Sequence record: ON470583
DNA: 36,681 nucleotides
Strand: one strand, 5' to 3'
DNA from: Escherichia phage vB_EcoS-689R5
Under the pieces are notes generated by a model. It worked only from the letters and a program-made list of their open reading frames with translations. It was not told where the DNA came from and made no database searches. This document shows, piece by piece, positions 3,921 to 36,681 of the stretch. Both the position numbers and the translations under genes were made by a program. Each line of letters opens with the position of its first letter. Position 1 is the stretch's first letter.

Positions 3921-6362
3921 TTAAAAATCAGCCTGACTCGGGATCAGTTTTTGCCAGATAGCTGAAACGTATTTTGCCTGGTAACGAGCGTCATCAAGTG
4001 CATTATGGCGCTCACCTTCGAATGGAATAGCCGTTCTGGCATCGAAGTCTATGGCTTTCCCCAGCTCAACGATTGTGCGTACATCGCGATCGTTGTAGTA
4101 ACGCCACGGGCAGGGGATCCCCTGCCGTTCGTATGAACGGCGCAAAATCGTGTTGTCGAAGTTGGCTCCATTTCCCCAGACCTGAACAAAAAATTCACCG
4201 GAGTTTTCGTCGATAAATTCCCGCAATTGTAACAGTGCATCATCTAACGGGATTTCATCGGTCATAATGGCAGATTGCGCTTCGCGTGATTGCTTAAGCC
4301 ACCATTTAATGGTGTCCCGATCAATGACTCCGCCAGCAGTTTCCAGATCGATAGTCTTACTAAATTCCGGTCCCATATCTCCGGTTTGCGGATCGAAAAA
4401 TATTGCACCTATTGAGATGATCGGGGCATCAGGATTTTTTCCCATGGTTTCAAGGTCGATCATTAGATGGTCACACGTCCTGCTGGTGGATGTGATTTCT
4501 TGATGACCGTTCACCTTAATTGAGTGATCTGCCGTCTCGCCAGTTTCATTATCGCTATCGTGATGCTGATTGCCGCCAGTGTTCTCCTTGTGTGGATGTT
4601 CAGCGCCTTCCATTTCCTCCGGATCATCTTCCTGAACTTCAACCTGATACTCTTCATCGAATGTTTCCTGGTATGTTGCGTCGCCCATCACCGCGCCACA
4701 ATCAGGGCAGTTGCCGCCGCCGGTCTGACCGCAGGCGGTGCAGACTTTTTCCACTTCCTGTTGCGCCACTGGTTCGGATTGTTTCGTTTCTGGCTCGTTT
4801 TGTAACGCATTTGGGCTGTTTTGTTCCGCTTTTTGGTCGTTCCGTTCCGATTCATGCTGGTTCTGGTTCACAGAATCGCGAGTCTGGATCCCTTTGACCC
4901 ATTTCGGATCATTAGGGTCGCTAATCCCCTCAACAAATTCACCACGCGATACAGCAAGTAACTTATCGGCGTCAGGCTGGCTGATATTGGCTGCCTGCAT
5001 AATTTTGTTTACTTCGTCAGCGGTGACTTTTACTTGGTTAGCGGAACTCACCTGCGACTGAGCATCCAGCGACTGCGCGTTCTGGCCATGTTCAGTTGTA
5101 TCCGGTTCCATTGTTTCAGTTGTTGCCTGTTCACCTGCCATTGCGTCAGATGGTTGTGGTTTTTCTTCTTCTGTTTCACGCTCAGTAACCACCTCGCGGT
5201 TAATTTCTTCCAGGATATCTTTTTCCGGCGTATGCCGGGCAGCTGTGAGAGTTTCCTTGCTGGGGTTCTCGTGATCAGTTTCCGTCAAATAGGCGTTGAT
5301 ATACCCCTGAAGGCGTCCCGGGTAGTGATAAAATTCAGGGTGTGCGCTTCGGATAAGTGCAAAAATAGCGGCGCGGGAATAGTCCAGAATACCCGGGGTT
5401 GCACGAAGTGCTGCGGACCATTCTTTGAACGGACTTTCTTGGTTCAGGACTACTTCTTTTGCGCGACGATAAACGCTGCCCTGAATTTCATAAATATTAA
5501 AATCCATCGGAAGTGTGGCTGCTGCAATCTCCACATCCAGTGTGTCGAGGGTGTGTACTAAATTCGGATTGCGATCGGTTTTGTTCCCACCGCCAGCATT
5601 AGCACCGGAAGCCGTGCGGGTGATGCGTGAAACACGATTTCCTTTCATCCACTCTTTTGTCAGCAAACCCCGATCAGTGTAGTCAGCGTCTAGGTATGCT
5701 TCGAAAAAAGCAGTTATTAGTCCCAGGTCTGAATTACCAGGATTAGGGAAAACTTTGTCAGTGTCACGAACCAGTTTGTGGAGGTCGCGAATCTCCAGCG
5801 AGTCGAGCAGACTGGTTTTATGCGAAATAGCCAGGGCAGTAACAGCCGGTAGTTCTTCAGCCCGTGCAATGTGTAATGCCTGGAGTTCGTCGCGTGAAAT
5901 GTGCGTTACTGGTTTTTCGCTGCCGTGTTGAGCAAGCCAACGAATGGGCAGTTCCTGACCGGAGACAGGCAGAAGCATGCTCTCCTCAATCTCAGTCATG
6001 GCTTCGCCGTTGATGTTGGTATTGTCAGTGCTGGCTGGTTTGTCCTGAACAGAGGGGGAAGGGCCGATAAATGTCATTGTGATGCCATCTTTCCCGCCTT
6101 TTTCATAGCGATTGCAGAATTCAGTATCAAACACGCCTTCTGGCGGAAGGTCGTCAACAACGGGCAAATTGACGCGGACGGGTTTTTTAAAGTCGTCTTC
6201 ATCATAATCGTTGTCATCCATTGCGGTAATGCAGCGGGAGATTGCAACAGATAATTTTTTTGCTGTAGTCCAGTAAAAACCACCTTTAATTCCTAGGCGT
6301 TTTCTTACTTTGTCATTTTTTGCTTCGCAATATAGTGCAAATTCTTCTTTATCAGTGCTCAT
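3921..6362 (-). CDS. Large phage exonuclease-family protein (full-length ydfE-like) with C-terminal DnaQ-like 3'-5' exonuclease domain
   Basis: 813-aa ORF; C-terminal motifs [31 protein letters not shown] (DEDDh-like); central acidic low-complexity region and a CxxC...CxxC ribbon ([16 protein letters not shown]). Confidence 0.7.
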
Positions 6363-6455
6363 TATTGGTAAACCTCATCACAGATTTAAGGGTGAACAAA
6401 TCTCTGCCATTGCTGACATATAAGAATGAAACTGGATATTTATTACGGTGCTGTT

Positions 6456-7001: not shown

Positions 7002-7059
7002 AAAAAGGGCGGCAGAGCAGTCACGGAGTAAAACTGATACCGCCAAACGTCACCAGAAA
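7002..7059 (-). ncRNA. dicF: DicF small RNA
   Basis: Reverse complement reads UUUCUGGUGACGUUUGGCGGUAUCAGUUUUACUCCGUGACUGCUCUGCCGCCCUUUUU with a terminal GC stem plus U-run, between ydfC and dicB. Exact processed ends not determinable. Confidence 0.8.
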
Positions 7060-12839: not shown

Positions 12840-13195
12840 GCGAGATTAATTATCAGGAAGGGCATGAAAAGGCAGGGCAGGCAAAACCAGTGGCATGGCG
12901 ATATCGCTACGTGAAAAAAGGCGTTACAGACTTTCAGGGGAAGCAGTGGGTTGGTGACTGGAAATATGTCCCGACAAAAGAGGATTGCAACGACAGGCCG
13001 AGCTATGAGATTCAGGCCTTATTCACTGTCCCGCCTGTGCCACTGACACCAGAAGGATTGATTAAAGCAGTGCGTTTCTATGAACAGGTAAAGCGTGAGA
13101 ATCCGCCAGTCGAAACCGGAGCATGGAAAGACGCTGTTGACTGGGTGCTCAAAGAGGCTTGCCAGGCTGTAAACATTGGTACCAAAGGAGATTGA
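12836..13195 (+). CDS. Hypothetical nin-region protein (119 aa)
   Basis: ORF with start overlapping the upstream stop (ATGA). Confidence 0.5.
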   Translation: MSEINYQEGHEKAGQAKPVAWRYRYVKKGVTDFQGKQWVGDWKYVPTKEDCNDRPSYEIQALFTVPPVPLTPEGLIKAVRFYEQVKRENPPVETGAWKDAVDWVLKEACQAVNIGTKGD

Positions 13196-13196
13196 T

Positions 13197-13637
13197 ATGA
13201 CCACTTTTACCGACAAAGAACTGATTAAAGAAATCAAAGAGCGCATAGGCAGCTTGGACGTTCGAGACAATATTGAGCGCCGTGCTTATGAAATTGCTCT
13301 GGCATCGCTGGAAGCAGAGGCAGTTATGTTCTGTATATCAGGACAAAATGTAGATTCAGAAGAACATGTATCAACCAGCAAAGCGGTTGTTGATGCCTGG
13401 GTTGAAGAATGGAATCAGGTTGACGGAAGTCCTGGCGAACCACTGTACAAAACTATGCCACTCTACTATCACGCTGCCTTGCCAGCGCCGGTAGTGCCGG
13501 AAGAAGCAACTCCGGAAAACGTAGAAATGCTCTCTGGCTATGTTTCCACGTACAAATTAACCGATAGCGAGCGCGATATTGCTGCCGAAATATGGAACGC
13601 CTGCCGCGCCGCTATGCTTCATGGGAAAGGAGAGTGA
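13197..13637 (+). CDS. Hypothetical protein, member of the MTTFT...ALASLEAE paralog family (copy 1)
   Basis: MTTFTDKELIKEIKERIG...[15 protein letters not shown]...; ATG 7 nt after AAAGGAG. Confidence 0.5.
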   Translation: MTTFTDKELIKEIKERIGSLDVRDNIERRAYEIALASLEAEAVMFCISGQNVDSEEHVSTSKAVVDAWVEEWNQVDGSPGEPLYKTMPLYYHAALPAPVVPEEATPENVEMLSGYVSTYKLTDSERDIAAEIWNACRAAMLHGKGE

Positions 13638-13912: not shown

Positions 13913-14080
13913 ATGACCACTATTACCAAAGAACGTATTGAATTGTTCATTAAAAATCCGCTTGAAAACGGGCTTACCCGTGGTGAACAAATGGAACTGG
14001 CACGGATTGCGCTGGCATCGCTGGAAGCAGAGCCGGTTGTGTTCTGGTTTGAAAAATATCAAGAAGGGGCTACGGCATGA
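13913..14080 (+). CDS. Hypothetical small protein, MTTFT...ALASLEAE paralog family (copy 2, 55 aa); absent from the ORF track
   Basis: Manual translation [55 protein letters not shown]; AAGGAG SD. Confidence 0.45.
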
Positions 14081-14421
14081 CGACTTTTACCAGAGAGCAG
14101 TTAATAGCTCACGCAGAGGAGACTATTGAAGCACAGAGACTGTGCATACCGGGCACAATCGACCATGACATCATCCGCACATATAAGATGGATATTGCTG
14201 TTCTGGAAATCGCACTGGTATCGCTGGCAGCAGAGCCAGCCGGTAAATTGCATGAATACAAACCAGTGGGATATCAGCGTCTGGTCGATGAGTTAACCAT
14301 GCTGGTAAAGCAGTTAACCTGGCAACTGAGGAAAGCGAAGCCAGACTGCAAATTACCGGATAAGGCGATGAGTTATCTGGAGCGGAACGGACTGATAAGC
14401 GTGGAGGATATTTTACGATGA
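14077..14421 (+). CDS. Hypothetical protein, MTTFT...ALASLEAE paralog family (copy 3)
   Basis: [22 protein letters not shown]...[14 protein letters not shown]...; start overlaps the previous stop. Confidence 0.5.
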
Positions 14422-14711
14422 CTGGCCTGAGGCATTTACAACGGCAGGAATCGCAATGGCTGTGGCGCTGGTGGTGTATTCGATTTGCCGCTGGGGATAA
14501 AAACGGTTTGCGGGAAAAGGAGAGTTAAGTAGAATTGCAGCGGGTGCTTGAGGCTATCTGTCTCAGGCATGAACACCAAAAGGCAGATAGAGAAAAGCCC
14601 CAGTTAACATTACGCGTCCTGCAAGACGCTTAACATTAATCTGAGGCTCAATCTATGAACGGCAAATCTAGGTTAGCCTCTTACGTGCCGAAAGGCAAGG
14701 AGAAGCAGGCT

Positions 14712-14867
14712 ATGAAGCAGCAAAAGGCGATGTTAATCGCCCTGATCGTCATCTGTTTAACCGTCATTGTGACGGCACTGGTAACGAGGAAAGACCTCTG
14801 CGAGGTACGAATCCGAACCGGCCAGACGGAGGTCGCTGTCTTCACAGCTTACGAACCTGAGGAGTAA
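14712..14867 (+). CDS. hokD: Hok/Gef-family type I toxin (51 aa, hokD/relF-like)
   Basis: MKQQKAMLIALIVICLTVIVTALVTRKDLCEVRIRTGQTEVAVFTAYEPEE; the track ORF extends in frame upstream (MNGKSRLASYVPKGKEKQA), a possible mok-like leader. No relBE is seen upstream. Confidence 0.8.
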   Translation: MKQQKAMLIALIVICLTVIVTALVTRKDLCEVRIRTGQTEVAVFTAYEPEE

Positions 14868-15010
14868 GAGACCTGGCGGGGGAGAAATCCCTCGCCACCT
14901 CTGATGTGTCAGGCATCCTCAACGCACCCGCACTTAACCCGCTTCGGCGTTTTTTCCGTTGATTAACTCTAGTTATTAGAGAACCGAACTTTTATTGATG
15001 GGGCAGGGAG

Positions 15011-15403
15011 ATGAAGAAACTTGTTTTAGTCGCAGGTGTAATGATTGCAACAGTAATGTTGGGAGGGTGTGCAGCAAAGGTCGATCCAGCGTTGAAAGCA
15101 GAAGCAATGAAGCCACTAACATGTAATGATGAAAAGCAATGTGACTTTTATTGGAAACGAGCGCAATTCTGGTTGGCTAATAATTCCTCATGGAAAATTC
15201 AAACGGCGACAGACACGCTAATTTCCACTTATAATCCCTCTCCAAATAGTCCATTCCTCGCTTATCAAGTGAGTAAAATGCCAAATGAAGATGGATCCTC
15301 AAGAATTTTCATCAAGCCTTTTTGCGATAATATGTTTGGCTGTCAACCAAACCCCTATCAGGCAGTTGTTTCCTTTAAAAACTTCGTTAAAACAGGGCAG
15401 TAG
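15011..15403 (+). CDS. Predicted lipoprotein of unknown function (moron)
   Basis: Signal peptide plus lipobox MKKLVLVAGVMIATVMLGGC; AT-rich codon usage unlike neighbouring phage genes; followed by a strong terminator. Confidence 0.65.
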   Translation: MKKLVLVAGVMIATVMLGGCAAKVDPALKAEAMKPLTCNDEKQCDFYWKRAQFWLANNSSWKIQTATDTLISTYNPSPNSPFLAYQVSKMPNEDGSSRIFIKPFCDNMFGCQPNPYQAVVSFKNFVKTGQ

Positions 15404-15602
15404 TGTATAGCTTGGACGATAAATTATTAGTGAAAACGCCGTAAACCCTCACCCAATGTGGACTAAGTCTATCAAACATGACTGTGATGATTAGTCCGTA
15501 GTTGTTGCCTATGAAATCTGGATTGAGTCAGGGTTTAATCCAATAATTATTCTATCGTTCCTTTACAAGTCCGGTATATTACTTTCAGTTTGTTTTAGCA
15601 TA

Positions 15603-15627
15603 CCCGCTTCGGCGGGTTTTGTTTTTT
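15603..15627 (+). terminator. Rho-independent terminator after the lipoprotein gene
   Basis: CCCGCUUCGGCGGG hairpin followed by UUUUGUUUUUU. Confidence 0.75.
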
Positions 15628-15699
15628 CCTAGCATTCTGGTTTACAATTCGCACGCCAGCCTGAACAACTGGCACCTGCTGCGCCAGCAGAGACAACCG

Positions 15700-15978
15700 A
15701 TGGCGCACGATACCAAATTACACAATTCTGATGATTCTGCCGTCTTTGCCAGCAGGCACGGGCGGCGTTCCCGCACTTTCAAATCTGACTGGTTCCAGCA
15801 TGACCCATGTACTGAAGAACAGGCCGAATGGCTAATTCATAACTATCGCAGACGCGGATACGAGATTAAGAAAGCCCTCAGCCTCGATTATCGTCACTGG
15901 ATAATCTATGTCAGGCTCCCTTATTCCGAACGCCCACCGCGCCCATCCCGCACATACCAGCAACGGATCTGGAGGTAA
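15700..15978 (+). CDS. Rem-like hypothetical protein (about 92 aa)
   Basis: MAHDTKLHNSDDSAVFASRHGRRSRTFKSDWFQHDPCTEEQAEWLIHNYRRRGYEIKK...; start chosen at the first ATG clear of the upstream terminator. Confidence 0.5.
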   Translation: MAHDTKLHNSDDSAVFASRHGRRSRTFKSDWFQHDPCTEEQAEWLIHNYRRRGYEIKKALSLDYRHWIIYVRLPYSERPPRPSRTYQQRIWR

Positions 15979-15979
15979 C

Positions 15980-17035
15980 GTGCGGATATTACTTCGACCT
16001 GTTCTGGTACCGGAACTCGGGCTGGTGGTCCTTAGGCCGGGCCGTGAATCCATGCAAGTATTTCATAACCCTCGAGTGCTGGTGGAGCCTGAACCGAAAA
16101 GCATGCGCGGTCTGCCGTCCGGAGTCGTCCCTGCCGTTCGCCAGCCGCTGGCGGAGGATAAATCATTACTGCCATTTTTCAGCGATGAGCGGGTGATTCG
16201 TGCTGCTGGCGGCGCTGGGGCACTGTCTGACTGGCTGTTGCGTCATGTCAAATCCTGCCAGTGGCCTCATGGTGACTATCATCACAGTGAAATCGTCATA
16301 CATCGTTACGGTACCGGCGCGATGGTGTTGTGCTGGCACTGCGACAACCAGTTGCGTGACCAGACATCCGAATCACTCGGGCAACTTGCTCATCAAAACC
16401 TGTCAGCATGGATGATTGACGTCATACGCCATGCAATGAATGGCACGCAGGAGCGGGAATTGTCGCTGGCTGAATTATCCTGGTGGGCGGTCTGCAATCA
16501 GGTGGCGGACGCGCTTCCGGAGGCAGTATTACGTCGTTCTCTGGGGTTACGTGCGGAAAAAATCCGCTCCTTGTACCGCGAAAGCGACATCGTACCGGGA
16601 GAGCAGACCGCCACCAGCATACTGAAGCAGCGCACAAAAAATCTTGCGCCGTTGCCTCATGCCCACCAGCAAAACCCGCCACAGGAAAAGACGGTGGTCA
16701 GCATTGCCGTTGATCCGGAGTCACCGGCTCAGTATCTCCAGCGCCAGAAACCACAACGGGAAGAGATGCCTGTATACACGCGTTGGGTAAAAACGCAGAA
16801 ATGCATGACGTGCGGTAATCAGGCAGATGATCCGCATCACATCATTGGTCATGGACTGGGAGGGATGGGAACAAAGGCTGATGATTTGTTTGTTATTCCG
16901 CTGTGCCGTAAATGTCATAACGAACTGCACGCCGGGGTAAAAGATTTTGAAGAAAAACACGGCAGCCAGCTGTTGTTGCTGATTCGTTTTTTAATGCACG
17001 CGAGAAATTCGGGTGTCCTGAAGTGGAAAGCATGA
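15980..17035 (+). CDS. DUF968-family phage protein (YdfU-like) with C-terminal Cys/His motif
   Basis: GTG start after GGAGG; C-terminal CMTCGNQADDPHHIIGHGLGGMGTKADDLFVIPLCRKCHNELH. Confidence 0.65.
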   Translation: MRILLRPVLVPELGLVVLRPGRESMQVFHNPRVLVEPEPKSMRGLPSGVVPAVRQPLAEDKSLLPFFSDERVIRAAGGAGALSDWLLRHVKSCQWPHGDYHHSEIVIHRYGTGAMVLCWHCDNQLRDQTSESLGQLAHQNLSAWMIDVIRHAMNGTQERELSLAELSWWAVCNQVADALPEAVLRRSLGLRAEKIRSLYRESDIVPGEQTATSILKQRTKNLAPLPHAHQQNPPQEKTVVSIAVDPESPAQYLQRQKPQREEMPVYTRWVKTQKCMTCGNQADDPHHIIGHGLGGMGTKADDLFVIPLCRKCHNELHAGVKDFEEKHGSQLLLLIRFLMHARNSGVLKWKA

Positions 17036-18281: not shown

Positions 18282-18357
18282 GGCCCTTTAGCTCAGTGGT
18301 GAGAGCGAGCGACTCATAATCGCCAGGTCGCTGGTTCAAATCCAGCAAGGGCCACCA
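18282..18357 (+). tRNA. tRNA-Ile2-like (anticodon CAU; ileX/ileZ-type, could also read as tRNA-Met)
   Basis: GGCCCUUUAGCUCAGUGGUGAGAGCGAGCGACUCAUAAUCGCCAGGUCGCUGGUUCAAAUCCAGCAAGGGCCACCA; clean cloverleaf with CUCAUAA anticodon loop. Confidence 0.8.
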
Positions 18358-18358
18358 G

Positions 18359-18435
18359 CCGCCACTAGCTCATCAGGAAAGAGCGTCAACCCTTTAAGTT
18401 GAGTGTGCGAGGTTCGAGTCCCCGGTGGCGGTCCA
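18359..18435 (+). tRNA. Atypical tRNA-like gene (anticodon loop CCUUUAA; isotype uncertain, possibly UUU/Lys-like or a pseudo-tRNA)
   Basis: Perfect 7-bp acceptor stem (CCGCCAC/GUGGCGG), U8-A9, D arm, TUCGAGU T-loop and encoded CCA; but C at position 33 and one T-stem mismatch. Confidence 0.5.
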
Positions 18436-18437
18436 GT

Positions 18438-18513
<76 letters not shown>

Positions 18514-18516
18514 TAT

Positions 18517-18591
<75 letters not shown>

Positions 18592-33809: not shown

Positions 33810-34143
33810 GCCTGAAGTTTTTAACTGGATCCCCCGTGAGGGGATGGAGACGACACGAAAGCCATCAGTTATTACGGTAAAGTTTGGTGACGGATATGAA
33901 CAGCGACGGGCTGGTGGTCTGAATGCGGATCTGAAAACGTTTAAACCGGTATTTCGTGTCACAGATGAATATTCCCGTGCCGCGCTGGACAGTTTTTTAT
34001 CCCGTCATGCCGGGATTCGTGCTTTTTTGTGGCGTCCGCCAAAACACAACAGGACTGTCCGGGTTGTCTGCAGGGAGTGGAGCATTTCGGATAATGCCAT
34101 GTATACCGATTTTAACTGTACCTTTGAAGAGGTCACTCACTGA
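33787..34143 (+). CDS. Minor tail protein M (lambda gpM-like)
   Basis: ...VKFGDGYEQRRAGGLNADLKTF...FLWRPP... as in lambda M; start overlaps the tape measure 3' end. Confidence 0.8.
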   Translation: MEDCTVPEPEVFNWIPREGMETTRKPSVITVKFGDGYEQRRAGGLNADLKTFKPVFRVTDEYSRAALDSFLSRHAGIRAFLWRPPKHNRTVRVVCREWSISDNAMYTDFNCTFEEVTH

Positions 34144-34841
34144 TGCAGGATATACAGCAGGAAACACTCAATGAGTGCACTAAAACGGAGCAATCCGCGC
34201 TGATCGTGCTCTGGGAAGTCGATCTGACAGAGGTCGGCGGAGAACGTTATTTTTTCTGTAATGAGCAGAACGAAAAAGGTGAGTCGGTCACCTGGCAGGG
34301 GCGACAGTATCAGGCGTACCCTATTCAGGGAAGCGGCTTTGAGATGAACGGCAAAGGAGCCAGTGCAAGACCAACGCTGAAAGTCTCTAACCTGCACGGC
34401 ATGGTCACCGGGATGGCGGAAGACCTGCAGAGTCTGGTCGGCGGAACGGTGGTCAGGCGTAAGGTTTACGCCCGTTTTCTGGATGCGGTGAACTTCGTCA
34501 ACGGAAACAGTGACGCCGATCCGGAGCAGGAGGTGATCAGCCGCTGGCGCATCGAGCAGTGCAGCGAACTGAGCGCGGTCAGTGCCTCCTTTGTGTTGTC
34601 CACACCGACGGAAACGGACGGTGCCGTTTTTCCGGGGCGCATCATGCTGGCCAACACCTGCACCTGGATCTACCGCGGCGATGAGTGCGGTTATGATGGC
34701 CCGGCTGTCGCGGATGAATATGACCAGCCAACGTCCGATATCACGAAGGATAAATGCAGCAAATGCCTGAGTGGCTGTAAGTTTCGCAATAACGTCGGCA
34801 ACTTTGGCGGCTTCCTTTCCATTAACAAACTTTCGCAGTAA
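34143..34841 (+). CDS. Minor tail protein L (lambda gpL-like)
   Basis: 232-aa ORF with C-terminal cysteine cluster (CTWIYRGDECGY...CSKCLSGC). Confidence 0.85.
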   Translation: MQDIQQETLNECTKTEQSALIVLWEVDLTEVGGERYFFCNEQNEKGESVTWQGRQYQAYPIQGSGFEMNGKGASARPTLKVSNLHGMVTGMAEDLQSLVGGTVVRRKVYARFLDAVNFVNGNSDADPEQEVISRWRIEQCSELSAVSASFVLSTPTETDGAVFPGRIMLANTCTWIYRGDECGYDGPAVADEYDQPTSDITKDKCSKCLSGCKFRNNVGNFGGFLSINKLSQ

Positions 34842-34846
34842 ATCCC

Positions 34847-35590
34847 ATGACAGAGACAGAATCAGCGATTCTGGCGCACGCCCGGCGATGTGCGCCAGCG
34901 GAGTCGTGCGGCTTCGTGGTGAGAACGTCGGAAGGGGAAAGATATTTTCCCTGCGTGAATATCTCCGGTGAGCCGGAGGAGTATTTCCGGATGTCGCCGG
35001 AGGACTGGCTGCGGGCAGAGATGCAGGGTGAGATTGTGGCGCTGGTCCACAGCCACCCCGGTGGTCTGCCCTGGCTGAGTGAGGCCGACCGGCGGCTGCA
35101 GGTGCATAGTGATTTGCCGTGGTGGCTGGTCTGCCGGGGTGAGATTCATAAATTCCGCTGTGTGCCGCATCTCACCGGGCGGCGCTTTGAGCACGGGGTG
35201 ACGGACTGTTACACGCTGTTCCGGGATGCTTACCATCTGGCGGGGATTGAGATGCCGGATTTTCATCGTGAGGATGACTGGTGGCGTCACGGTCAGAATC
35301 TCTATCTGGATAATCTGGAGGCAACGGGGCTATATCAGGTGCCGTTGTCAGCGGCGCAGCCGGGCGATGTGCTGCTGTGCTGTTTTGGTTCATCGGTGCC
35401 GAATCATGCCGCCATTTACTGCGGCGACGGCGAGCTGCTGCACCATATTCCTGAACAACTGAGCAAACGAGAGAGGTATACCGACAAATGGCAGCGACGC
35501 ACACACTCCCTCTGGCGTCACCGGGCATGGTACGCATCTGCCTTTACGGGGATTTACAACGATTTGGCCGCCGCATCGACCTTCGTGTGA
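34847..35590 (+). CDS. Tail assembly protein K (JAB/MPN plus NlpC/P60-like); overlaps I by 103 nt
   Basis: ...AESCGFVV...HSHPGG...DCYTLFRDAYHLAGIEMP...; the lambda-annotated shorter start would be the ATG at 34991. Confidence 0.85.
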   Translation: MTETESAILAHARRCAPAESCGFVVRTSEGERYFPCVNISGEPEEYFRMSPEDWLRAEMQGEIVALVHSHPGGLPWLSEADRRLQVHSDLPWWLVCRGEIHKFRCVPHLTGRRFEHGVTDCYTLFRDAYHLAGIEMPDFHREDDWWRHGQNLYLDNLEATGLYQVPLSAAQPGDVLLCCFGSSVPNHAAIYCGDGELLHHIPEQLSKRERYTDKWQRRTHSLWRHRAWYASAFTGIYNDLAAASTFV

Positions 35591-36135
35591 AAACGGGGGC
35601 CGAAGCCATCCGGGCGCTGGCCATGCAGATCCCGGCGTTTCGTCAGAAACTGAGTGACGGCTGGTATCAGGTACGGATTGCCGGGCGTGATGCAGGTGAA
35701 ACCGAATTATCTGCCCGTCTTAATGAGCCGCTGGCAAATGGTGCCGTGATCCACATCGTTCCGCGTCTGGAGGGGGCCAAAAGTGGCGGTGTGTTTCAGG
35801 CGGTGCTGGGTGCGGCGCTGATTGCGGTGGCATGGTGGAACCCTGTGGGCTGGCTGGGGGCCGCGGCTGTATCGGGTATGTATGCAGCAGGGGCCAGTAT
35901 GATCCTGGGTGGTGTGGCGCAGATGCTGGCACCGAAAGCCCGGACGCCCACGGCAGCCAGTACAGATAACGGCAAACAGAACACGTATTTCTCGTCACTG
36001 GATAACATGGTTGCCCAGGGCAATGTTCTGCCCGTTCTGTACGGTGAAATGCGTGTGGGGTCGCGAGTGGTATCTCAGGAGATCAGCACGGCAGATGAAG
36101 GTGATGGTGGTCAGGTTGTGGTGATTGGTCGCTGA
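35488..36135 (+). CDS. Tail assembly protein I (lambda gpI-like)
   Basis: MAATHTLPLASPGMVRICLYGDLQRFGRRIDLRVKTGAEAIRALA... and C-terminal ...NGKQNTYFSSLDNMVAQGNVLPVLYGEMRVGSRVVSQEISTADEGDGGQVVVIGR. Confidence 0.9.
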   Translation: MAATHTLPLASPGMVRICLYGDLQRFGRRIDLRVKTGAEAIRALAMQIPAFRQKLSDGWYQVRIAGRDAGETELSARLNEPLANGAVIHIVPRLEGAKSGGVFQAVLGAALIAVAWWNPVGWLGAAAVSGMYAAGASMILGGVAQMLAPKARTPTAASTDNGKQNTYFSSLDNMVAQGNVLPVLYGEMRVGSRVVSQEISTADEGDGGQVVVIGR

Positions 36136-36154
36136 TGCAAAATGTTTTATGTGA

Positions 36155-36178
36155 AACCGCCTGCGGGCGGTTTTGTCG
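36155..36178 (+). terminator. Terminator-like hairpin between I and J
   Basis: CCGCC-UGCG-GGCGG followed by UUUUGUCGUUU. Confidence 0.5.
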
Positions 36179-36195
36179 TTTATGGAGCGTGAAGA

Positions 36196-36681
36196 ATGGG
36201 TAAAGGCAGCAGTAAGGGGCATACCCCGCGCGAAGCGAAGGACAACCTGAAGTCCACGCAGCTGCTGAGTGTGATCGATGCCATCAGCGAAGGGCCGGTT
36301 GAAGGTCCGGTGGATGGATTAAAAAGCGTGCTGCTGAACAGTACGCCGGTGCTGGACAGTGAGGGGAATACCAATATATCCGGCGTCACGGTGGTGTTCC
36401 TGGCCGGTGAGCAGGAGCAGACACCGCCGGAGGGATTTGAATCCTCCGGCTCCGAGACGGTGCTCGGTACAGAAGTGAAATATGACACGCCGATCACCCG
36501 GACCATCACGTCGGCAAACATCGACCGTCTGCGTTTTACTTTCGGCGTGCAGGCACTGGTGGAAACCACCTCAAAGGGGGACAGGAATCCGTCGGAAGTC
36601 CGCCTGCTGGTTCAGATACAGCGTAACGGTGGCTGGGTGACGGAAAAAGACATCACCATTAAGGGCAAAACCACCTCGCAG
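36196..36681 (+). CDS. Central tail fibre / tip attachment protein J, N-terminal 162 codons (runs off the window end)
   Basis: Manual translation MGKGSSKGHTPREAKDNLKSTQLLSVIDAISEGPVEGPVDGLKSVLLNSTPVLDSEGNTNISGVTVVF...; open to the window end. Confidence 0.85.
   Translation, partial: MGKGSSKGHTPREAKDNLKSTQLLSVIDAISEGPVEGPVDGLKSVLLNSTPVLDSEGNTNISGVTVVFLAGEQEQTPPEGFESSGSETVLGTEVKYDTPITRTITSANIDRLRFTFGVQALVETTSKGDRNPSEVRLLVQIQRNGGWVTEKDITIKGKTTSQ

What the first reader, a model, noticed from the sequence alone, without database searches (positions are those of the whole stretch)
14500..15627. Hok toxin with in-frame upstream leader, no relBE, and an adjacent low-GC lipoprotein moron
The 51-aa Hok/Gef-type toxin is at the hokD position of Qin-like prophages, but relB/relE are absent upstream and the track ORF extends in frame 19 codons upstream, unlike the out-of-frame mok in classical hok/sok. 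A Sok-like antisense RNA would be expected in about 14520-14720 but cannot be defined by eye. Between hok and rem sits a 130-aa lipoprotein (LGGC lipobox) with AT-rich composition and its own strong terminator, a candidate Cor/Bor-like exclusion or envelope factor.
Basis: partly seen in the sequence, partly recalled or inferred. Interest (0 to 1): 0.5.

Follow-up and report, generated by a model that had tools for sequence, protein, structure and literature searches.

The report
Ordinary hok/sok locus plus uncharacterised lipoprotein
This stretch of an E. coli prophage holds a complete, textbook hok/mok/sok toxin-antitoxin module, followed by an inserted gene for a small outer-membrane lipoprotein whose widespread family has no known function; neither is a new kind of system.

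Summary
Most of the "unusual" readings are wrong.

**hok/mok/sok (window 14530-14955).** This is a canonical, complete locus:
- The Hok protein is 100% identical to K-12 HokD.
- The DNA is 91% identical to hokW-sokW of phage 933W/Sp5, which has been tested experimentally.
- The 19-codon in-frame extension is Mok. R1-type hok, K-12 mokC/hokC and 933W mokW/hokW have exactly the same arrangement.
- Sok maps to 14663->14593 on the minus strand, with the same promoter sequence as sokW.
- Lacking relBE is the norm. The intact leader-hok junction occurs in 4022 of 5426 complete E. coli genomes, and the relE-hokD junction in 1165. K-12 hokD is the copy truncated at its 5' end.

**Lipoprotein (15011-15403).**
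- It is a real, conserved, low-GC insertion. Phage Evi lacks it.
- It has no Pfam or NCBIfam match and is not a Cor or Bor member.
- Its family is large (1134 clusters), and some members carry a C-terminal PDZ domain.
- Close homologues outside E. coli sit mostly between lambda-like tail-tip genes.
- A superinfection-exclusion or receptor-masking role is plausible but untested.

**Terminator and neighbours.**
- The "own" terminator is a copy of the hok terminator.
- The copy between hok and the lipoprotein gene has lost part of its stem.
- The next gene downstream is not Rem.

The parts
14508..14535 (+). Inferred hok mRNA promoter: TTGCGG, 16-nt spacer, -10 TAGAAT (14530-14535)
   Evidence: The -10 aligns with the TATAAT of K-12 hokC in alignment A1. 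The weak -35 is read from the sequence. The consensus scan did not pick it up. Inferred.
14542..14717 (+). hok mRNA 5' leader, including the tac element (GCGGGTGCTTGAGG from 14540), the Sok target and the mok and hok ribosome-binding sites
   Evidence: Rfam RF01794 'sok', 112.4 bits (gathering score 59), E=5e-25, full model 1-157. The match is on the + (hok-sense) strand.
14593..14663 (-). Sok antitoxin RNA (about 71 nt): 14-nt single-stranded 5' tail, long hairpin, U tail
   Evidence: Position mapped from the sokW annotation of phage 933W. 64/71 nt identical to SokW. Folds at -30 kcal/mol, z=-5.6. The 3' end is taken from that annotation and was not measured.
14670..14698 (-). Sok promoter: -35 TTGCCT (14698-14693), 17-nt spacer, -10 TAACCT (14675-14670), start at 14663
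   Evidence: Identical in sequence to the 933W sokW promoter region and aligned with R1 TTGCGC-17-TATCCT. sokW promoter activity was shown by mutation in PMC8621323. Below the threshold of the consensus scan.
14655..14867 (+). mok: 70-codon frame that starts 19 codons upstream of hok, in the same frame, with the same stop
   Evidence: ORF list. Same architecture as mokW, mokC and R1-type mok. The four Mok sequences are compared.
14712..14867 (+). hok toxin gene, 51 aa, identical to HokD (RelF)
   Evidence: Pfam HOK_GEF E=3e-23. 100% identical to K-12 HokD. 47/51 identical to HokW. PGAP names it hokD.
14917..14931 (+). fbi (fold-back inhibition) element, CCTCAACGCACCCGC, complementary to the 5' tac
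   Evidence: In the minimum-free-energy fold of 14541-14955 the first ~13 nt pair with this segment. -163.6 kcal/mol, z=-5.8.
14937..14955 (+). Weakened copy of the terminator hairpin (ACCCGCTTCGGCG then T6). The 3' arm of the stem has lost its Gs. This is the left junction of the insert.
   Evidence: Direct repeat D1 with 15602-15620. Folds at only -4.5 kcal/mol, no better than shuffles. The same lesion is in 55 E. coli-type IMG/VR loci. Intact in Evi, K-12, Pantoea and Enterobacter.
14956..15601 (+). Inserted low-GC block (39% GC), absent from phage Evi
   Evidence: Evi aligns to 14523-14955 and 15602-15800 with a 19-nt overlap. GC values.
15011..15403 (+). Lipoprotein gene, 130 aa: lipobox LGGC, Ala at +2, four further conserved Cys
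   Evidence: PHROG 16082, E=3e-84, function unknown. Homologues 66-85% identical in Enterobacter, Pantoea and Phytobacter. 1134 family clusters. AF2 model pLDDT 83. 55/130 third-position against 32/260 first+second-position differences from the Enterobacter gene.
15404..15601 (+). AT-rich non-coding tail of the insert (36% GC), of unknown role
   Evidence: No Rfam match at E<=1. No homology to the other cassette contexts. 15450-15518 is missing in phage 606R7.
15602..15627 (+). Intact rho-independent terminator ACCCGCTTCGGCGGGT + TTTTGTTTTTT. It is the original hok-type terminator.
   Evidence: Terminator scan. -13.1 kcal/mol, z=-3.1. Matches the hok terminator of Evi and K-12 hokD.

Best explanation
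Two independent accessory modules lie side by side in the early-right (nin) region of a Qin-like lambdoid prophage. The prophage is 100% identical to one in ST131 E. coli.

**(1) A complete type I toxin-antitoxin locus, hok/mok/sok.**
- A weak promoter makes a roughly 415-nt hok mRNA. Its 5' end (tac) pairs with the 3' fbi element and keeps the mRNA inert.
- After 3' trimming, ribosomes start at mok. Hok translation is coupled to mok translation.
- The 51-aa Hok then depolarises the inner membrane.
- The ~71-nt Sok RNA is made from the opposite strand. It pairs with the mok start region and blocks translation.
- By analogy with hokW-sokW, the closest tested relative, the module probably helps lysis and phage release on induction, and/or stabilises the prophage.
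- Shown here: every sequence and structure element is present and homologous. Inferred: that the locus is active.

**(2) A low-GC insert encoding a 130-aa lipoprotein.**
- Ala at position +2 predicts sorting to the outer membrane. The conserved cysteines suggest two disulfide bonds in a periplasm-facing alpha/beta domain.
- Both ends of the insert are copies of one terminator-hairpin sequence. Whether recombination at that sequence produced the insertion is my inference.
- In all E. coli copies examined, the hairpin between hok and the lipoprotein gene is weakened and no promoter was detected. The gene may therefore be read through from the hok transcript. This is inference.
- The most likely role is superinfection exclusion or receptor masking expressed in the lysogen, working like T5 Llp or Cor. 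I put this at about 0.35-0.4. It rests on context only.
For: **hok/sok**
- Pfam HOK_GEF and Rfam RF01794 at 112 bits.
- 91.4% DNA identity over 522 nt to 933W mokW/hokW/sokW, which carry explicit annotation.
- Alignment of all elements with R1-type hok, hokC and hokW.
- Sok hairpin at -30 kcal/mol, z=-5.6. End-pairing fold of the mRNA, z=-5.8.
- hokW-sokW toxicity, the sokW promoter, and a halved phage release without the locus are published in PMC8621323.
- hok is enriched in prophages (bioRxiv 10.1101/2025.08.07.668861).

**Lipoprotein**
- Insertion relative to phage Evi, with low GC.
- Conserved lipobox and cysteines. Substitution pattern typical of purifying selection. Confident model, pLDDT 83.
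- Weak fold resemblance to the outer-membrane lipoproteins BamC-N and Flpp3, and to KA1 domains.
- Close homologues lie at four different junctions of the lambda-like tail-tip cluster: H|M, M|L, K|I and I|J.
- One homologue lies directly after parDE near sieB. Another overlaps a repressor-like HTH gene by 4 nt.
- The same hairpin sequence opens the cassette in Pantoea and Enterobacter.
- The weakened hairpin occurs in 55 E. coli-type IMG/VR loci.
Against: - No expression or activity data exist for this locus.
- Chromosomal hok/sok loci of K-12 and other strains failed to mediate post-segregational killing (cited).
- The weakened terminator could disturb the 3' processing on which hok activation depends.
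- For the lipoprotein, no family with a known function matches. Pfam, NCBIfam and PADLOC give nothing. The Cor PHROG matches only the signal peptide.
- Location among tail genes may only reflect intergenic sites that tolerate insertions.
- The hairpin is a common GC-stem/UUCG design, so its recurrence could be convergence.
- No promoter for the lipoprotein gene was detected.
Confidence: 0.6

Rival explanations
1. The lipoprotein is a host-fitness or virulence factor expressed from the prophage, comparable to lambda Bor/Iss (serum resistance) or another envelope-stress factor. On this view it does not exclude phages.
For: - It is predicted to be an outer-membrane lipoprotein.
- It is carried in 249/5426 complete E. 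coli genomes, including clinical ST131 blood isolates.
- Chromosomal relatives fused to PDZ domains point to a general periplasmic protein-binding role.
- The fold resembles BamC-N and Flpp3.
Against: - There is no Bor/Iss Pfam match.
- The recurrent placement inside tail-tip gene clusters, next to the receptor-binding J gene, is more typical of exclusion genes.
- No phenotype data exist either way.
Confidence: 0.25
2. The hok/sok copy is a silent chromosomal relic, and the lipoprotein insertion has further disabled it. With the terminator weakened, the mRNA no longer ends just after fbi and cannot be activated by 3' trimming.
For: - The left hairpin folds no better than shuffled sequence, and this lesion is fixed in E. 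coli copies.
- Chromosomal hokA/B/C loci did not mediate killing (cited).
- The Sok -10 (TAACCT) and the hok -35 are poor matches to consensus, and one search found neither promoter.
Against: - Every regulatory element is intact and perfectly conserved with the functional hokW-sokW promoter region.
- The hok ORF is intact and identical to HokD.
- The tac-fbi pairing is preserved.
- The locus is held at >=99% identity in 1891 records.
Confidence: 0.2
3. The lipoprotein works together with the neighbouring toxin-antitoxin module. It might be an accessory or immunity factor that modulates Hok action at the envelope, making hok-lipoprotein one operon with one purpose.
For: - Two of the three non-tail contexts are immediately downstream of a TA module: hok/sok here and parDE in Yersinia.
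- The terminator between hok and the lipoprotein gene is weakened in 55 E. coli-type IMG/VR loci.
- No separate promoter was found.
Against: - Most homologues have no TA neighbour.
- Most hok/sok loci, including functional hokW-sokW and phage Evi, have no such lipoprotein.
- hok/sok (type I) and parDE (type II) are mechanistically unrelated.
Confidence: 0.08
4. The lipoprotein ORF is a spurious or decaying reading frame in AT-rich junk DNA.
For: It is annotated only as a hypothetical protein, with no Pfam or NCBIfam hit.
Against: - Homologues 66-85% identical occur in other genera, with an invariant lipobox Cys and four conserved Cys.
- The family has 1134 clusters.
- The substitution pattern is biased to third codon positions.
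- The AF2 model is confident, with pLDDT 83.
Confidence: 0.02

Closest known systems
hokW-mokW-sokW of Stx phages 933W / Sakai Sp5 (Takada et al. 2021, PMC8621323)
   Same: - 91.4% DNA identity over 522 nt.
- Same architecture: 70-codon mok in frame with a 51-codon hok, and a 71-nt Sok.
- Identical Sok promoter region and hairpin.
- Both are prophage-borne.
   Different: - Hok differs at 4 of 51 residues, all C-terminal.
- Six of the first 10 nt of the Sok 5' tail, and hence the mok start region, differ. This may separate the two loci into different specificity groups (inference).
- In 933W the locus lies at a different genome position and is followed by a YgiW/YdeI-like gene, not this lipoprotein.
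hok/sok (parB) of plasmid R1
   Same: All named elements align: tac, mok 19 codons upstream in frame, the Sok promoter with a 17-nt spacer, the hok Shine-Dalgarno sequence and fbi.
   Different: - Sequence is highly diverged outside the conserved elements (alignment A1); the published HokW-R1 Hok identity is 44% (PMC8621323).
- The Sok hairpin here is 16 nt longer (alignment).
- It sits in a prophage, not a plasmid.
relB-relE-hokD (relF) of the K-12 Qin prophage
   Same: - Identical Hok protein, and 98% DNA identity from window 14698 to 14955.
- Same place in the prophage map, upstream of the DUF968 (ydfU)-Q block.
   Different: - K-12 has relBE in place of everything upstream of 14698. It therefore lacks the Sok -10, Sok, the mok start and tac.
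- The window has the intact locus and no relBE.
- K-12 has rem in the slot where the window has the lipoprotein.
Phage outer-membrane exclusion lipoproteins Cor (phi80/N15/HK022) and Llp (T5); lambda Bor
   Same: - All are small lipoproteins with a lipobox, encoded by temperate-phage accessory genes.
- Homologues of this protein often lie next to tail or receptor-binding genes. cor and llp do too, from my own knowledge of those phages.
   Different: - There is no sequence membership. The Cor PHROG matches only residues 1-44, the signal peptide, at E=0.007. No Bor Pfam hit was found.
- The protein is larger (110-aa mature domain) and has two probable disulfides.
- Its function is untested.
BamC N-terminal helix-grip domain / Francisella Flpp3 (DUF3568) / KA1 domains
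   Different: - Sequence identity is 5-15%.
- Foldseek E-values are all above 0.01.
- The fold is common, and nothing about function carries over.

Membership tests
[quoted passage not shown] | Small hydrophobic Hok/Gef-family toxin | tested here: met
   Pfam PF01848 E=3e-23. PHROG 251 E=8e-33. Identical to HokD.
[quoted passage not shown] | mok reading frame that starts upstream of hok, overlaps it, and is covered by Sok | tested here: met
   ATG 14655 lies 19 codons upstream in frame. The layout is the same in R1-type, mokC and mokW. GAGG lies 9 nt upstream of the ATG (read).
[quoted passage not shown] | cis-encoded Sok antisense RNA with its own promoter, a single-stranded 5' tail and a terminator hairpin | tested here: met
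   64/71 nt identical to the annotated SokW. Hairpin z=-5.6. Promoter TTGCCT-17-TAACCT is identical to sokW. All of this is in silico; transcription was not measured.
[quoted passage not shown] | Conserved hok mRNA leader structure | tested here: met
   Rfam RF01794 at 112.4 bits against a gathering score of 59.
[quoted passage not shown] | 5' tac / 3' fbi end-pairing of the full-length mRNA | tested here: met
   The minimum-free-energy fold of 14541-14955 pairs the 5' end with 14917-14931, z=-5.8.
[quoted passage not shown] | Toxicity of Hok and its neutralisation by Sok | not testable with these tools
   Shown only for the relative hokW-sokW (PMC8621323).
relBE-hokD operon (K-12 Qin) | relB and relE immediately upstream of hokD | tested here: not met
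   tblastn finds no RelB or RelE match below E=0.4 in the window. Homology to K-12 begins at 14698.
Cor superinfection-exclusion lipoprotein (PHROG 1119) | HMM match over the mature protein | tested here: not met
   E=0.0071, covering residues 1-44 only, which is the signal peptide and lipobox.
Lambda Bor / Iss (Pfam Lambda_Bor) | Pfam match | tested here: not met
   No Pfam family at E<=0.01 for the protein, or for the lipoprotein domain of any of 46 relatives.
T5 Llp | Sequence or fold similarity to Llp | tested here: inconclusive
   No PHROG, PDB-sequence or fold hit named Llp appears in the listed matches. I did not verify that Llp is in the structure libraries.
Bacterial lipoprotein (signal peptidase II substrate) | Positive n-region, hydrophobic h-region, and a lipobox ending in an invariant Cys | tested here: met
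   MKK, then LVLVAGVMIATVM, then LGGC. C20 is invariant in 46 sequences, and most relatives have LSGC. No SignalP or LipoP was available. Outer-membrane sorting is inferred from Ala at +2, using the E. coli +2 rule.
Moron (Hendrix-type phage accessory cassette) | Extra DNA between genes that are adjacent in related phages, with deviant composition | tested here: met
   Absent in phage Evi, with a 19-nt junction overlap. 39% against 50% GC.
Moron (Hendrix-type phage accessory cassette) | Own promoter and terminator | tested here: inconclusive
   A terminator is present at 15602-15627, but it is the hok-type one. No sigma-70-like promoter was found upstream of 15011.

The most novel reading that the evidence does not exclude
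The lipoprotein founds an undescribed family of phage outer-membrane lipoproteins that exclude superinfecting phages by masking a receptor.

- The cassette moves between tail-tip gene junctions and toxin-antitoxin loci, perhaps by recombination at a portable terminator hairpin.
- In E. coli it has become fused to hok/sok transcriptionally through a weakened terminator. A toxin mRNA would then also serve as the messenger for an exclusion protein.
- The same domain, fused to PDZ in chromosomal lipoproteins, would point to binding of an outer-membrane protein from the periplasmic side.
Probability: 0.2. Interest if true: 0.55.

Novelty: new member of a known kind. Interest (0 to 1): 0.25.

Why it matters
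The hok/sok part changes nothing. It is a correctly formed copy of a locus already annotated in thousands of genomes and already tested in a 91%-identical relative. It does show clearly that K-12 hokD is the truncated copy and that this arrangement is the intact one.

The lipoprotein is the only part that could repay work:
- The family has more than 1000 sequence clusters and no Pfam model, structure or known function.
- It recurs in temperate phages of several enterobacterial genera, usually next to host-recognition genes.
- It is carried by about 5% of complete E. coli genomes, including ST131 clinical isolates.

If it blocks phage entry, it would add to the small set of known receptor-masking lipoproteins. 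That would matter for phage-therapy host-range predictions in ST131.

Tried and rejected
1. **Out-of-frame mok.** I extracted an R1-type hok locus from a plasmid and listed all frames. The only ORF spanning the hok start is in frame. Rejected.
2. **relBE elsewhere in the window.** None found.
3. **Consensus promoter scan.** It found neither the hok nor the Sok promoter, nor any promoter for the lipoprotein gene. The Sok promoter was placed by homology instead.
4. **Family searches for the lipoprotein.** Pfam, NCBIfam and PADLOC gave nothing. The PHROG hits have unknown function.
5. **Profile search of PDB sequences.** It matched only through the PDZ part of long relatives.
7. **tblastn against GenBank phages.** Only one record was found, phage 606R7.
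8. **Literature search for the RefSeq accession.** Nothing found.
9. **Permissive Rfam scan of 14300-15800.** No second RNA was found, and nothing in the 198-nt non-coding tail.
10. **Names of distant homologues.** All are "hypothetical protein".
11. **Rem as the downstream gene.** Rejected.
Full report
**Where the window comes from.** Region 14400-15700 is 100% identical to chromosomes of many human E. coli isolates, including O25b:H4-ST131. In strain 4993 it lies in a lambdoid prophage next to tRNA-Ser and mtfA. That prophage has dicB, ydfB/C and a DicA/C-like immunity region upstream. Downstream it has DUF968, RusA, Q, a tRNA cluster, lysis genes and HK97-like head and tail genes. Rfam also finds DicF at 7007-7058. 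"Qin-like prophage" is therefore a fair description.

- The ORF at 14655-14867 encodes 70 aa. Its last 51 aa (14712-14867) match Pfam HOK_GEF at E=3e-23 and are identical to K-12 HokD.
- No RelB or RelE homologue exists anywhere in the window.
- The 130-aa ORF at 15011-15403 starts MKKLVLVAGVMIATVMLGGC.
- The inserted block is 39% GC against 50% for the window.
- A strong terminator-like hairpin sits at 15602-15627.

**The in-frame extension is canonical Mok.** I tested this directly.
- In phage 933W, mokW and hokW share a stop, and mokW is 57 nt longer.
- In K-12, mokC (16751-16960) and hokC (16751-16903) do the same.
- In an R1-type plasmid locus encoding the classical 52-aa Hok, the only ORF that spans the hok start is in frame, from an ATG 19 codons upstream.
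- The four extensions are all 19 codons long and alignable: MSDNIRIASYRALRKEKKA, MNGKSRLASYVPKGKEKQA, MLNTCRLASYVPKGKEKQA and MLNTCRVPLTDRKVKEKRA.

**Sok and the mRNA elements.**
- Rfam RF01794 matches 14542-14717 over its full length at 112 bits. The match is on the hok-sense strand, so it confirms the leader rather than Sok itself.
- The 933W record annotates sokW on the opposite strand. Transferred through the 91.4%-identical alignment, Sok runs from 14663 to about 14593 on the minus strand.
- That RNA has a 14-nt free 5' tail, a long hairpin (-30 kcal/mol, z=-5.6) and a U tail, like SokW and SokC.
- Upstream on the minus strand lies TTGCCT, a 17-nt spacer, then TAACCT (14698-14670). This is identical to the sokW region and aligned with R1's TTGCGC-17-TATCCT.
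- The simple consensus scan missed this promoter because the -10 matches only 3 of 6 positions. Mutating the sokW promoter abolished antitoxin activity, and sokW RNA was detected by Northern blot (PMC8621323).
- The full mRNA (14541-14955) folds with its 5' end paired to CCTCAACGCACCCGC at 14917-14931, the fbi element, at z=-5.8.
- A -10 TAGAAT at 14530-14535 aligns with the TATAAT of hokC.
- All defining elements of hok/sok are therefore present.
- The only notable difference from SokW is that 6 of the first 10 nt of the 5' tail differ. This may give a separate recognition specificity; that is inference.

**Absence of relBE is the common state.** K-12 hokD aligns to the window only from 14698 onward, at 98% identity. 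Upstream of that point K-12 has relE. The breakpoint falls in the Sok -35, so K-12 hokD lacks Sok, the mok start and tac. A 161-nt probe across the intact leader-hok junction is covered at 80% or more in 4022 of 5426 complete E. coli genomes. The equivalent relE-hokD probe is covered in 1165. A recent survey also reports that hok is enriched in prophages.

**The lipoprotein is an insertion.**
- Phage Evi aligns to 14523-14955 and then directly to 15602-15800, with a 19-nt overlap. The overlap is the direct repeat ACCCGCTTCGGCG... at 14937 and 15602.
- The right copy is the intact hok-type terminator, as in Evi and K-12 hokD. The left copy has lost the Gs of its 3' arm and folds no better than shuffled sequence.
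- The homologous cassettes in Pantoea and Enterobacter prophages begin with nearly the same hairpin, CCCGCTTCGG(C/T)GGGTTTT. This suggests recombination at a shared terminator sequence, although convergence of a common hairpin design cannot be excluded.
- Of 56 E. coli-type copies in IMG/VR, 55 have hok/sok directly upstream and the same weakened hairpin.
- The combined hok-lipoprotein arrangement is in 249 of 5426 complete genomes.
- K-12 Rem has no homologue in the window. The K-12 rem gene occupies the same hok-to-DUF968 slot. The ORF at 15700-15978 belongs to PHROG 1212, of unknown function.

**What the lipoprotein is.**
- It has no Pfam, NCBIfam or PADLOC match. It belongs to PHROG 16082, of unknown function. 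The Cor PHROG matches only the signal peptide.
- Close homologues, 66-85% identical, occur in Enterobacter, Pantoea and Phytobacter, and a 57%-identical one in Yersinia. The lipobox Cys is invariant and four further Cys are conserved. Substitutions are biased to third codon positions.
- A profile search of 1.84 billion representatives finds 1134 clusters at E<=1e-3.
- Eleven of 46 sampled members, all of about 220-280 aa, carry a C-terminal PDZ domain. One of these sits in an ordinary chromosomal context.
- The AF2 model (pLDDT 83, pTM 0.70) shows a helix, a four-stranded sheet and a C-terminal helix.

**Context as the main functional clue.** Outside E. coli the gene lies:
- between the tape-measure gene and gpM;
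- between gpM and gpL;
- between gpK and gpI;
- between gpI and gpJ;
- after an antirepressor just before gpI and gpJ;
- directly after parDE near sieB in Yersinia;
- overlapping a repressor-like HTH gene by 4 nt in a small integrative element.

Repeated independent placement next to host-recognition genes, or with lysogeny-expressed genes, is what one sees for exclusion genes such as cor and llp. That comparison rests on my own knowledge of those phages. I therefore favour a receptor-masking or superinfection-exclusion role at about 0.35-0.4. A Bor-like host-fitness role is the main rival. None of this has been tested. The window's own tail-tip genes (33865-36681) carry no second copy.

**Verdict.** The toxin-antitoxin half is already known and ordinary. 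The lipoprotein half is a new, uncharacterised member of a known kind of element, the phage accessory lipoprotein. I score overall interest as low to moderate.

Noticed in passing
window 14850-14855: TACGAA, containing hok codon Tyr47 (TAC), is invariant across all six hok loci aligned: window, 933W, Evi, R1-type, hokC and hokD. A 2026 preprint states that TadA A-to-I editing recodes the equivalent Tyr to Cys in hokC/D/E mRNAs. This copy probably keeps that editing site.
   Followed up: no
window 15700-15978, and K-12 locus L005 4652-4903: The gene after the lipoprotein is not Rem. K-12 Rem has no match in the window. The 92-aa ORF is PHROG 1212, of unknown function. K-12 rem sits in the same hok-to-DUF968 slot, which therefore looks like a recurrent insertion site.
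   Followed up: partly
window 13176-13637, 13913-14080, 14077-14421: Three ORFs just upstream of hok share an N-terminal pattern, MTTFT/ITKE ... [10 protein letters not shown]. They look like tandem paralogues or domain-shuffled nin-region genes. The last one matches PHROG 660, of unknown function.
   Followed up: no
loci L018 (6001-6834); proteins P0120, P0179, P0181: The lipoprotein domain occurs fused to a C-terminal DegP-like PDZ domain in proteins of about 220-280 aa. One is in a chromosomal context next to der/engA and a YfgM-like gene. The domain itself has no Pfam model.
   Followed up: partly
loci L015-L017 (Yersinia enterocolitica), 5314-6402: A 57%-identical homologue lies about 135 bp downstream of a parD-parE pair, in the early region of three different prophages, near sieB. 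This is a second case of the lipoprotein gene following a toxin-antitoxin module.
   Followed up: no
loci L022/L023, 4579-5387: A 46%-identical homologue overlaps the stop of an HTH_3 repressor-like gene by 4 nt. The host is a small element with a VapE-like primase and an integrase, resembling a phage satellite. This suggests co-transcription with the repressor.
   Followed up: no
window 14655-14672 / Sok 5' tail 14663-14650: The mok start region and the Sok 5' tail (ATGAACGGCAAATCTAGG) differ at several positions from the version shared by hokW, phage Evi and hokC (ATGCTGAACACATGTAGG), while the rest of the locus is conserved. This may be a specificity switch that avoids cross-talk between co-resident hok/sok loci.
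   Followed up: partly
window 7007-7058 (-), and 18282-18591 (+): A full-length DicF sRNA is present (76.7 bits). A cluster of four tRNA genes lies just downstream of the Q antiterminator gene. ARAGORN calls them CAT (Met), Lys, Thr and Gly. PGAP calls the CAT tRNA Ile in the identical ST131 prophage.
   Followed up: no
window 15404-15601: A 198-nt stretch of 36% GC non-coding DNA lies between the lipoprotein stop and the terminator. It has no Rfam match and no homology to the other cassette contexts. 69 nt of it (15450-15518) are deleted in phage 606R7. Some phage records annotate a short minus-strand 'mobile element protein' ORF at or just downstream of this region, around the terminator, which is probably spurious.
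   Followed up: partly
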